The notes: a model not told the origin generated them from the sequence alone. Shown: positions 23,696-25,396, counted from the first letter of the stretch. The stretch: DNA of 41,012 nucleotides from an uncultured Methanosarcinales archaeon (GCA_964590935.1 CAZPXC010000005.1:1-41012); one strand, 5' to 3'. Numbers and translations are program-made.

Positions 23696-25396
23696 ATGAG
23701 AATAAAGGGGTTAACTGTTTCTACAATTTTTCTGGTGGCAGGACTGTTTGTCTTTATCGAGAATATTAGTGCCGCAGATGTTTACATCAGTCAAACGGCC
23801 AGCGGAAGCGATAATGGTGCGGGTTGTATAGATGCTCACTCGATTGCCTGGCTGAATACTGCAGGCAACTGGGCAAATCCTAAGCAGACCGGAAAAATAG
23901 GACCAGGGGATACAGTGCATCTTTGCGGGACCATATCCACGAGCCTCTTCATCCGCGGAAGCGGTTCTTCCGGAAGTCCGATAACTATCCTTTTCGAGCC
24001 TGGCGCAAAGCTCTCTGCACCAACATGGACAGGAGCGTGGTATGGGGTCGAGGGGGCTGTTCAGGCGACCAACGTGAACTATATAGTCCTTGACGGCGGG
24101 ACAAATGGTGTGATTGAGGCGACTGACAGCGGTACTGACCTGCAGCAGGTGGGTTCCATGGGCATCATGTTCTCGCATGTCTCAGATTCAGAGATCAGGA
24201 ATCTCAACATAAGAAACATGTATGTCCGAACATCCACAGAAGGTGAAGACGGTGGTGGAACAGCGATGTACATCAATGCAGGGAGCAACAACAGCATACA
24301 TGACAATCACATAACAGAGACACAGACGGCCATTGTCTATGTCTACCCCCAGGGAGGATCTTCAGATAATATAGCCATATACAACAACACGATATCGCGC
24401 ATGAACTGGGGTATCATCCTCGGCGAGAGCAACAATGACGCGAAAGCGGACAATGTTTCTATCTATTCAAATGATATCAGCGACATGTACAACTGGGACG
24501 ACCCGAATGATAATTTTCATCATGACGGCATTTATGCCTATGCTGAGGCGGATGGTGATGTGGTTACCAACCTGAGGGTGTTCGGCAATTACATCCACGG
24601 TGATATGGGGCTTCATGTGACAGCCATGATCTTTACTTCGGGCAATGTTATCGACCCGATATATTTTGATAATGTGCTGGTCAATACAGGCCCTCACGGG
24701 ATATCAAACGGGCTTCTCTGCGCAGGAGGAAGGATATATCACAACACTTTCGTAGACCACTATACGAGCATGGGGATCGACGCATGGTCAGGGAGTGACA
24801 TAAGGAATAACCTGTTCTACAACACCTCAGTTCCTGTGGCCATACATCAGCCGGTCGGCTCTGCCTACAGCGACCATAATCTGTTCTTCAGCGGAAATGT
24901 GCAGATGGTGACCTTTGACTCAACCGGAACAGGCCATTTCTACAGCCTATCGGAATGGAGGTCTGATTTTGGCCTTGACCAGCACAGCATCACAGATGAT
25001 CCTCTTCTAATGGACCCCATAGACGGCAACTATCGCCTTCAGGCCGGCTCGCCCGCGATTGATATCGGCGAGAGCCTCAGCTGCACTGATGGGCTTTGCC
25101 TGGACAAGGATGGCATAACAAGGCCGCAGGACTCCGGCTGGGACATCGGTGCCTATGAATATATCTCAGGAACAGGAACTGTCTGCGGAGACGGGACATG
25201 TGAGAGCGGGGAAACGCCTGCAGGCTGCCCTGCAGACTGTGGAGGCACAAGTTCTTGTACAACAGGAGCGGATAATGATGGAGACTCCGCGGTTTCAACA
25301 GATGAACTAATTGATTATATCTCTGAGTGGAAATCAGGAAGCGTTTCAATAAGCGACCTTATTGCCGCGATCGCTGAGTGGAAAGATGGGTGCTAA
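23696..25396 (+). CDS. Array paralog G: secreted beta-helix protein ('AADVYI' class) + 4-Cys knot + C-terminal tag
   Basis: Signal peptide MRIKGLTVSTIFLVAGLFVFIENISA. ADVYISQTASGSDNGAGCIDAHSIAWLNTAGNWANPKQ. NN-I repeats. RPQDSGWDIGAYEY. CGDGTCESGETPAGCPADC (25184-25240). Tag 25256-25393. Confidence 0.85.
   Translation: MRIKGLTVSTIFLVAGLFVFIENISAADVYISQTASGSDNGAGCIDAHSIAWLNTAGNWANPKQTGKIGPGDTVHLCGTISTSLFIRGSGSSGSPITILFEPGAKLSAPTWTGAWYGVEGAVQATNVNYIVLDGGTNGVIEATDSGTDLQQVGSMGIMFSHVSDSEIRNLNIRNMYVRTSTEGEDGGGTAMYINAGSNNSIHDNHITETQTAIVYVYPQGGSSDNIAIYNNTISRMNWGIILGESNNDAKADNVSIYSNDISDMYNWDDPNDNFHHDGIYAYAEADGDVVTNLRVFGNYIHGDMGLHVTAMIFTSGNVIDPIYFDNVLVNTGPHGISNGLLCAGGRIYHNTFVDHYTSMGIDAWSGSDIRNNLFYNTSVPVAIHQPVGSAYSDHNLFFSGNVQMVTFDSTGTGHFYSLSEWRSDFGLDQHSITDDPLLMDPIDGNYRLQAGSPAIDIGESLSCTDGLCLDKDGITRPQDSGWDIGAYEYISGTGTVCGDGTCESGETPAGCPADCGGTSSCTTGADNDGDSAVSTDELIDYISEWKSGSVSISDLIAAIAEWKDGC
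25256..25393 (+). other. 46-aa C-terminal tag (G)
   Basis: CTTGADNDGDSAVSTDELIDYISEWKSGSVSISDLIAAIAEWKDGC-stop. Confidence 0.8.

What the first reader, a model, noticed from the sequence alone, without database searches (positions are those of the whole stretch)
23762..23935. Gene-conversion patch between the 5' regions of non-adjacent paralogs G and K (56-nt perfect run)
G 23831-23886 and K 30512-30567 are identical for 56 nt (GATGCTCACTCGATTGCCTGGCTGAATACTGCAGGCAACTGGGCAAATCCTAAGCA). The surrounding ~170 nt (G ~23762-23935, K ~30443-30616) are nearly identical. Further into the bodies the two proteins are clearly diverged: compare G ...SAPTWTGAWYGVEGAVQATNVNYIVLDGG with K ...SSPVWSSSGAISGSGESYIIIDGG. 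The two genes are 6.7 kb apart with four genes between them. Local homogenisation on a diverged background indicates ongoing recombination among array members.
Basis: seen in the sequence. Interest (0 to 1): 0.6.

Follow-up and report, generated by a model that had tools for sequence, protein, structure and literature searches.

The report
Recombination patch shared by two paralogs
Two otherwise very different neighbouring genes for secreted archaeal surface proteins share a roughly 170-base stretch that was copied from one to the other fairly recently, which is ordinary recombination between gene copies, not a new kind of system.

Summary
G 23831-23886 and K 30512-30567 are identical for 56 nt. 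They lie inside a 167-nt tract (23762-23928 / 30443-30609) that is 92% identical.

- **Synonymous sites:** in the tract they are nearly unchanged (44 of 49 conserved residues use the same codon, dS about 0.2). The next 27 codons are 78% identical in protein but saturated at synonymous sites. The bodies are about 30% identical.
- **Different subfamilies:** G and K belong to different subfamilies of a widespread beta-helix family. G's body is 71-72% identical to proteins from other metagenomes, and K's is 46-49% identical to a different set. In the tract, G and K are each other's closest relatives at 88%. AU tests reject the conflicting tree in both regions.
- **Rivals:** an RNA element, an antisense gene and a dispersed repeat have no support.
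- **Direction:** third-codon-position G+C content (GC3) in G steps from 0.39 to 0.60 at about 23924, so the patch is probably K-type sequence laid onto G. Direction is not proven.
- **The 56-nt run:** it is not a separate event (p = 0.05-0.23 within the tract).
- **Context:** other array pairs carry similar tracts with dS from 0.1 to 0.9.
- **Correction:** three genes, not four, lie between G and K.

Verdict: this is ordinary ectopic gene conversion in a tandem paralog array of an archaeon.

The parts
23762..23928 (+). G copy of the shared tract. It runs from the end of the signal peptide through the N-terminal cap and first rung of the beta-helix, residues about 23-78 of G.
   Evidence: 92.2% identical to 30443-30609. 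dS 0.20, dN 0.05, and 44/49 identical codons at conserved residues. AlphaFold2 pLDDT is 93-98 over these residues.
30443..30609 (+). K copy of the shared tract.
   Evidence: Same comparison. Its GC3 of 0.38 is close to K's body at 0.43.
23831..23886 (+). 56-nt exact run in G, encoding DAHSIAWLNTAGNWANPKQ. The K copy is at 30512-30567.
   Evidence: Exact identity. Not longer than expected inside the tract (p = 0.054 or 0.23).
23929..24010 (+). Internal control zone just 3' of the tract. The protein is conserved (GSGSSGSPITILFEP) but synonymous sites are saturated.
   Evidence: Amino-acid identity is 78%, identical codons 7/21, pS 0.87. The motif is a family-wide consensus also seen in external homologs.
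23696..25396 (+). Gene G, a 566-aa secreted right-handed beta-helix protein with a dockerin-like C-terminal tag.
   Evidence: ORF. Pfam Beta_helix at 26.3 bits and NCBIfam choice-of-anchor Q. AlphaFold2 model with pLDDT 84; nearest PDB folds are GH136, PL9 and PL6. Body is 71-72% identical to external P0002 and P0003.
30377..32047 (+). Gene K, a 556-aa paralog from a different subfamily.
   Evidence: ORF. Body is 46-49% identical to P0086, P0110 and P0121 but 31% to G. It falls in a separate clade with 99 support.
25141..25396 (+). G's 3' module (Cys-rich linker plus tag), shared with N, O, M and H and not with K.
   Evidence: 80% to N over 233 nt, 74% to O, and 85% to H over the tag. The GC3 step-down is at about 25153.
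31859..32097 (+). K's 3' tract, shared with gene I (28286-28519). It shows that K is a mosaic with a second partner.
   Evidence: 84% over 239 nt with exact runs of 51 and 40 nt. dS 0.33.

Best explanation
A short stretch of about 170 nt (at most about 235 nt if the signal peptide is included) was copied between genes G and K. These are two non-adjacent members of a co-directional tandem array of secreted beta-helix genes in an archaeal genome assembled from a metagenome. The mechanism is ectopic, non-crossover homologous recombination, i.e. gene conversion.

The copied stretch encodes the end of the signal peptide plus the N-terminal cap and first rung of the beta-helix. This is the only part where the two subfamilies were still similar enough to pair.

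The 3' end of the tract lies just past the family-wide PGDTVHLCG motif, at about 23928. That the motif supplied the homology is inferred. Since the event, about 8% of bases have changed (dS about 0.2).

The direction was most likely K-type sequence into G. In G, the patch has the low GC3 of the array heads and tails, not the high GC3 of G's own body.

What is shown: the bounded low-dS tract, the phylogenetic incongruence, and the presence of RadA. What is inferred: non-reciprocity, the donor, the exact 5' end, and RadA dependence.
For: - **Per-segment divergence:** in the patch, G-K dS is 0.25 and dN 0.07, while G-X and K-X are saturated. The next 27 codons are 78% identical in protein with saturated dS. 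The bodies of G, K and X are mutually 29-33% identical.
- **Control for codon identity:** K and X are 97% identical in protein over 29 codons before the tail, yet share only 10/28 identical codons. Protein conservation alone therefore does not give nucleotide identity in this genome.
- **Scan statistic:** Fisher 3.6e-10, and 0 of 300 permutations reach it.
- **Identity to external homologs:** G's body is 71-72% identical to P0002/P0003 and K's is 46-49% identical to P0086/P0110/P0121. In the patch, G-K is 88% against 54-56% for G versus P0002/P0003.
- **Trees:** the body tree puts G with P0002 and P0003 (support 100) and K in the other clade (99). A G+K clade is rejected there (delta lnL 262, AU 0.006). 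In the patch tree G and K are sisters, and the G+P0002+P0003 clade is rejected (AU 0.0005).
- **No crossover products:** H, I and J have no near-identical duplicate, so a single unequal crossover is unlikely.
- **G's tail has a different partner:** G's tail is nearest to H, N and O. Against K, the tag's dS is 1.26.
- **GC3 step in G:** 0.385 outside against 0.598 inside, with the best breakpoint at 23924 (3 of 500 permutations reach it). Patch GC3 is 0.40.
- **Recombinase present:** the archaeal RadA equivalog scores 461 bits against a cut-off of 259.
- **Young relative to speciation:** guaB is only 71-73% identical in protein to same-genus genomes, and those genomes have no G or K ortholog.
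Against: - **5' boundary:** it is not resolved. G-K identity in the promoter and signal peptide (73-76%) is no higher than for other array pairs. It is also not clearly below what dS of 0.2 would leave in unconstrained sequence, so a two-sided tract is not strictly proven.
- **Donor:** it cannot be assigned from diagnostic residues, which split 7 for the G subfamily and 6 for the K subfamily. The GC3 breakpoint has a wide support interval, 23831-24047.
- **No population data:** Non-reciprocity, timing and assembly correctness rest on a single assembled contig.
Confidence: 0.68

Rival explanations
1. Chimeric origin, not a patch. G arose when the body of a K-like duplicate was replaced by a beta-helix body of another subfamily, possibly acquired horizontally. 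The crossovers would lie at the PGDTVHLCG motif and at the WDIGAYEY / choice-of-anchor Q junction. The shared tract would then be the retained K-like head.
For: - GC3 in G is 0.60 in the body and 0.39 in both head and tail, with breakpoints at about 23924 and about 25153.
- G's body has much closer relatives outside the genome (71-72%) than inside it.
- The 5' boundary of the tract is unresolved.
- Same-genus genomes lack G orthologs.
Against: - G's tail is not K-like. Its nearest partners are H, N and O, it carries a Cys-rich linker that K lacks, and the G-K tag dS is 1.26. Extra events would be needed.
- The promoter and signal peptide of G are no closer to K than to L, I or C.
- The external relatives P0002 and P0003 have GC3 of 0.45 and 0.34, so they do not explain G's high GC3.
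Confidence: 0.2
2. The nucleotide identity is kept by selection at synonymous sites. The cause would be an embedded RNA structure, a regulatory element or an overlapping antisense gene.
For: - The K copy folds somewhat better than shuffled sequences (z = -2.2).
- A 155-aa antisense ORF (23711-24178) is open across the G copy.
Against: - The G copy has a fold z-score of -0.14, and there is no Rfam match at E <= 1.
- The antisense frame has stops in K just outside the patch.
- Paralog X encodes the same domain without any synonymous conservation, with 15/35 and 15/34 identical codons.
- Within the tract dN/dS is about 0.27, with 6 amino-acid changes. This looks like young shared ancestry, not extra constraint.
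Confidence: 0.04
3. Assembly or polishing artefact in a metagenome-assembled genome. Reads from one paralog, or from a co-occurring strain, were merged into the other across a shared k-mer.
For: The genome is an 87%-complete assembly in 122 contigs. A 56-nt repeat is long enough to confuse short-k assembly graphs.
Against: - The two copies differ at 13 positions spread on both sides of the exact run, and each is continuous with its own distinct flanks.
- An artefact would give a junction or perfect identity, not a 92% tract with codon-respecting differences.
- Several other pairs in the array show analogous tracts of different ages.
Confidence: 0.04

Closest known systems
Ectopic (interparalog) gene conversion and concerted evolution in prokaryotes, as surveyed by Wang & Chen 2018 (PMC6053082). 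From my own knowledge, classic cases include the tufA/tufB genes of Salmonella and the archaeal chaperonin paralogs.
   Same: Paralogs in one genome are more alike over a stretch than each is to its own closest relatives elsewhere. The similarity extends to synonymous sites, and the tract tree and flank tree disagree.
   Different: Here the tract is very short (about 170 nt). It lies between members of two deeply diverged subfamilies (bodies 31% identical), not between near-identical duplicates. It affects accessory secreted proteins, not core complex subunits. There is no evidence of long-lasting recurrent homogenisation of this pair.
Staphylococcus aureus lpl tandem paralog cluster (Tsuru & Kobayashi 2008, PMC2568036)
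   Same: A tandem array of secreted or surface paralogs is shuffled by homologous recombination at conserved sequence blocks. The 5' and 3' parts of one ORF have incongruent histories. In this array K's head pairs with G and its tail with I, and the I/J and N/O junctions share a tract that spans the intergenic region.
   Different: - The G-K tract does not span the upstream gene end and intergenic region. There G is no closer to K than to other members.
- The conserved blocks sit at the gene ends (head and tag), not in the centre of the ORF.
- No multi-strain comparison was possible.
- The organism is an archaeon.
Programmed antigenic-variation cassette systems (from my own knowledge: Neisseria pilE/pilS, Borrelia vlsE)
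   Same: Short segmental gene conversion between tandem, partially homologous copies of surface-protein genes produces mosaics.
   Different: Every array member here is a complete gene with its own TATA-like promoter, start codon, signal peptide and tag. There are no silent cassettes and no single expression site. Tract ages spread over dS 0.1-0.9, which indicates rare evolutionary events, not high-frequency switching.

Membership tests
Ectopic gene conversion between paralogs | A bounded tract of elevated nucleotide identity on a diverged background | tested here: met
   92% over 167 nt, against about 65% just downstream and about 44% in the bodies. The scan statistic is reached by 0 of 300 permutations.
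Ectopic gene conversion between paralogs | The excess identity holds at synonymous sites and is not explained by protein constraint | tested here: met
   dS is 0.20-0.25 in the tract and saturated in the adjacent protein-conserved zone. In the K-X control, 97% protein identity goes with 10/28 identical codons.
Ectopic gene conversion between paralogs | Phylogenetic incongruence between the tract and the rest of the gene | tested here: met
   AU tests reject G+K in the body (p = 0.006) and reject G+P0002+P0003 in the patch (p = 0.0005).
Ectopic gene conversion between paralogs | Two-sided tract without crossover products (non-crossover outcome) | tested here: inconclusive
   The 3' end is sharp at 23928. 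The 5' end is unresolved because promoter and signal-peptide similarity is array-wide. No duplicate of the intervening genes H, I and J exists, which argues against a single unequal crossover.
Ectopic gene conversion between paralogs | Non-reciprocal transfer with an identifiable donor and recipient | tested here: inconclusive
   GC3 of the patch (0.40) matches K and differs from G's body at 0.59 (Fisher p = 0.009-0.014). The nearest external sequence to the patch is P0110, K's sister in the body tree. Diagnostic residues, however, split 7 to 6.
Ectopic gene conversion between paralogs | Homologous-recombination machinery present in the genome | tested here: met
   The archaeal RadA equivalog NF003301 scores 461 bits (cut-off 259) on contig C77.
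Programmed cassette-type antigenic variation (pilS/vls-like) | Promoter-less silent cassettes donating to one expression locus | tested here: not met
   G, K and the other array genes each have a TATA-like box, a start codon, a signal peptide and a full-length ORF with a tag.
lpl-type evolutionary unit spanning two adjacent genes (Tsuru & Kobayashi 2008) | [quoted passage not shown] | tested here: not met
   For G-K, the upstream region (-41 to -1) is 73% identical, lower than G versus L, I or C at 78%. The feature is met for another pair in the array: I/J versus N/O, 86% over 284 nt across the junction.

The most novel reading that the evidence does not exclude
The array could work as a module-grafting system for the surface proteome of a DPANN-type archaeon. 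A conserved head (promoter, signal peptide, N-cap) and a conserved tail (choice-of-anchor Q junction plus dockerin-like tag) would serve as recombination handles. Through these handles, heterologous and partly foreign beta-helix enzyme bodies would be captured, fitted for secretion and display, and repeatedly re-headed and re-tailed. The G-K patch would then be one footprint of a selected, recurrent process and not an incidental conversion.
Probability: 0.1. Interest if true: 0.6.

Novelty: new member of a known kind. Interest (0 to 1): 0.3.

Why it matters
The case is a clean, internally controlled example of short-tract recombination between deeply diverged paralogs in an uncultured archaeon with a small genome. 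It shows that the heads and tails of these secreted beta-helix genes have histories separate from their bodies.

This matters in practice for anyone building trees or inferring horizontal transfer for this family, because the N-terminal 80 residues and the tail must be excluded.

It also adds to the picture of how surface-protein arrays in episymbiotic archaea diversify. It does not reveal a new mechanism.

Tried and rejected
1. **Nested younger event.** The 56-nt run as a separate, more recent event is rejected: its length is compatible with random placement of the tract's mismatches.
2. **Older conversion downstream.** The GSGSSGSPITILFEP zone as an older conversion is rejected: the motif is a family-wide consensus found in external homologs of both subfamilies.
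3. **RNA element.** Folding is not consistent between the two copies, and there is no Rfam hit.
4. **Antisense gene.** The ORF is open only in G.
5. **Dispersed repeat.** The genome has many repeats of about 230 nt, but the patch occurs only in G and K. A third, diverged paralog lies on C45.
6. **Donor assignment from diagnostic residues.** Uninformative, 7 against 6.
7. **Strain or alternative mosaics.**
   - The metagenome scan found nothing above 65% protein identity.
   - Same-genus genomes have no orthologs.
8. **Sequence search of solved structures.** No hit for G; only fold-level matches were found.
9. **Single unequal crossover.** Rejected because H, I and J are not duplicated.

Full report
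**Setting**

The window is a whole 41-kb contig (C5) of a 1.69-Mb, 87%-complete genome in 122 contigs. From 11.5 kb to the end it carries 16 co-directional genes for secreted proteins. Each has a TATA-like box, a signal peptide, a variable body and a shared C-terminal tag ending in EWK(N/D)GC. The genome is archaeal: it encodes an archaeal RadA equivalog scoring 461 bits against a cut-off of 259. Earlier notes of this scan call it Woesearchaeota-like. I did not test that.

Gene G runs 23696-25396 and gene K 30377-32047. Three genes lie between them, not four: H, I and J.

**Observation**

The 56-nt run 23831-23886 = 30512-30567 is exact. It lies in a tract, 23762-23928 versus 30443-30609, with 13 mismatches in 167 nt, i.e. 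92.2% identity.

Downstream, identity drops sharply. In the next 27 codons (GSGSSGSPITILFEP and neighbours) nearly every third base differs although the protein is 78% identical. In the bodies the proteins are about 30% identical.

The 56-nt run is simply the longest gap between mismatches in the tract. Its p value is 0.054 with 13 sites placed at random and 0.23 with 9 events. No second, younger event is needed.

**Is it more than protein constraint?**

| Region or comparison | Result |
|---|---|
| Tract, G-K | dS 0.20-0.25, dN 0.05-0.07, 44/49 identical codons at conserved residues |
| Next 27 codons, G-K | pS 0.87 (saturated), 7/21 identical codons |
| Tract, G or K versus paralog X (contig C45) | saturated |
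| Bodies, G, K and X | equidistant, 29-33% amino-acid identity |
| K-X, 29 codons before the tail | 97% protein identity, 10/28 identical codons |

The K-X row is an internal control: strong protein conservation does not produce nucleotide identity in this genome. A scan for the window richest in identical codons gives 52/59 against 72/168 elsewhere (Fisher 3.6e-10; 0 of 300 permutations).

**Phylogenetic incongruence**

G and K each have closer relatives outside this genome than each other.

| Comparison | Body identity | Patch identity (residues 27-78) |
|---|---|---|
| G vs P0002 / P0003 | 71-72% | 54-56% |
| K vs P0086 / P0110 / P0121 | 46-49% | 57-67% |
| G vs K | 31% | 88% |

- **Body tree:** G groups with P0002 and P0003 (support 100), and K falls in the other main clade (99). 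A G+K clade is rejected (delta lnL 262, AU p = 0.006).
- **Patch tree:** G and K are sisters, and the G+P0002+P0003 clade is rejected (AU p = 0.0005).

Residues 79-110 are about equally conserved among all family members. That explains the protein-identical but codon-diverged zone without a further event.

**Boundaries**

The 3' end is at about 23928, just after the family-wide PGDTVHLCG motif. The 5' end is unresolved. In the promoter (-41 to -1) and the signal peptide, G-K identity is 73-76%, no higher than G versus L, I, C or N. The signal specific to G and K therefore starts around 23750-23762. With dS of about 0.2, however, unconstrained sequence of the same age would not look very different.

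**Direction**

Diagnostic residues do not decide it: 7 favour the G subfamily and 6 the K subfamily. Composition helps.

- In G, GC3 is 0.598 in the body and 0.385 in head plus tail.
- An unsupervised two-breakpoint fit puts the steps at 23924 and 25153. Only 3 of 500 permutations reach this fit. The 2-lnL support intervals are 23831-24047 and 25136-25247.
- The patch has GC3 of 0.40 in G and 0.38 in K. K's body is 0.43.
- The nearest external sequence to the patch is P0110, K's sister in the body tree.

I therefore lean towards K-type sequence copied into G. This is not proven.

**Conversion or chimera?**

A single unequal crossover would have duplicated H, I and J, and no such duplicate exists.

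The alternative is a K-like duplicate whose body was replaced. That fits the GC3 pattern but not G's tail. The tail is nearest to H, N and O, carries a Cys-rich linker that K lacks, and has a tag dS of 1.26 against K. A short non-crossover tract is the most economical reading. I keep the chimera scenario as the main rival.

**Other rivals**

- **RNA element:** the fold z-score is -0.14 for the G copy and -2.2 for K, and Rfam gives no match.
- **Antisense ORF:** it is open in G only.
- **Dispersed repeat:** the patch occurs only in G and K in this genome, although the genome has a large unrelated repeat family of about 230 nt.
- **Assembly artefact:** this is unlikely because the copies differ on both sides of the exact run and join their own flanks.

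**Context and age**

The tract is one of several in the array.

| Pair and region | Exact run or identity | dS |
|---|---|---|
| M-N, internal | 80-nt exact run | 0.10 |
| J-O, signal peptide | 92% | 0.13 |
| G-K, patch | 56-nt exact run | 0.20 |
| I-K, 3' end | 51- and 40-nt exact runs | 0.33 |
| B-H, tag | 60-nt exact run | 0.47 |
| G-H, tag | 85% | 0.68 |
| G-N, linker plus tag | 80% | 0.84 |

K is thus a mosaic with two partners: G at the head and I at the tail.

The spread of ages fits repeated events over time, but nothing shows current activity. The event is younger than the split from the nearest sampled congeners. Their guaB is only 71-73% identical in protein, and they lack G and K orthologs. 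No closer copy of the head exists in the metagenome collection scanned; the best match is 65%.

**What the proteins are**

G gives a confident AlphaFold2 model (pLDDT 84, pTM 0.82). It is a right-handed beta-helix, and the patch forms the N-terminal cap and first rung with pLDDT 93-98. The nearest solved folds are carbohydrate-active beta-helix enzymes: GH136 lacto-N-biosidase, the PL9 pectate lyase Pel9A and PL6 lyases, with TM-scores of 0.4-0.5. This is fold-level similarity only; there is no sequence hit in the PDB. Both G and K carry the NCBIfam choice-of-anchor Q domain just before the tail. That is where G's 3' module begins.

**Comparison with known systems**

This is interparalog gene conversion, or concerted evolution, as known in prokaryotes (PMC6053082). 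Its closest analogue in architecture is the S. aureus lpl tandem cluster, where recombination at conserved blocks shuffles the halves of ORFs (PMC2568036). The G-K tract does not include the upstream intergenic unit described there, although the I/J and N/O junction pair in the same array does. It is not a programmed cassette system, because all members are complete, promoter-bearing genes.

**Verdict**

This is a new example of a known process, of modest interest.

Noticed in passing
window 31859-32097 vs 28286-28519: K's 3' end, from WDIGAYEYVSGTATSTC through the tag and stop codon and into the next promoter, is 84% identical to that of gene I. It has exact runs of 51 and 40 nt and dS 0.33. 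K is therefore a mosaic with a different partner at each end.
   Followed up: partly
window 34707-34786 vs 36910-36989: This 80-nt exact run between the interiors of genes M and N is the longest in the array (86 nt at 97.7%, dS 0.10). It encodes AQAGIPAISSVSGDISNGQTVTISGSG.
   Followed up: partly
window 23696-25393 (gene G): Third-position G+C in G is 0.60 in the body and 0.39 in head plus tail, with best breakpoints at 23924 and 25153. GC3 across the array genes ranges from 0.23 (P) to 0.575 (F), which suggests bodies of different origin or age.
   Followed up: partly
window 25031-25162 (G residues 446-489) and 31787-31882 (K residues 471-502): Both proteins match NCBIfam NF041518, the choice-of-anchor Q domain, immediately before the C-terminal module. 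The conserved WDIGAYEY motif marks where the array-type tails begin.
   Followed up: no
G000:C45:11122-12831 (minus strand; locus L015): A third paralog, X, has the same head-body-tag plan and sits on another contig next to further tag-bearing genes. It is equidistant from G and K (29-33%). It shares a 29-residue stretch before the tail with K at 97% protein identity but with saturated synonymous sites.
   Followed up: partly
L060:1-3766 (metagenome contig carrying P0002): G's closest external relative also sits in a tandem run of signal-peptide-bearing beta-helix genes. At least two of them end in the same short tail, ...TPPAAP(T/S)GL(S/A)VR-stop. This looks like a different lineage-specific shared C-terminus.
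   Followed up: no
window 3658-4130 vs 4231-4703: This is a 473-nt direct repeat at 72% identity inside the 920-aa minus-strand gene (2807-5569). That gene has MopE-like metal-binding motifs and a weak LPXTG-like hit, so the repeat is an internal domain duplication.
   Followed up: no
window 23711-24178 (minus strand): A 155-aa antisense ORF overlaps G's 5' region. The corresponding frame in K is interrupted by stops, so it is probably a chance open frame.
   Followed up: yes
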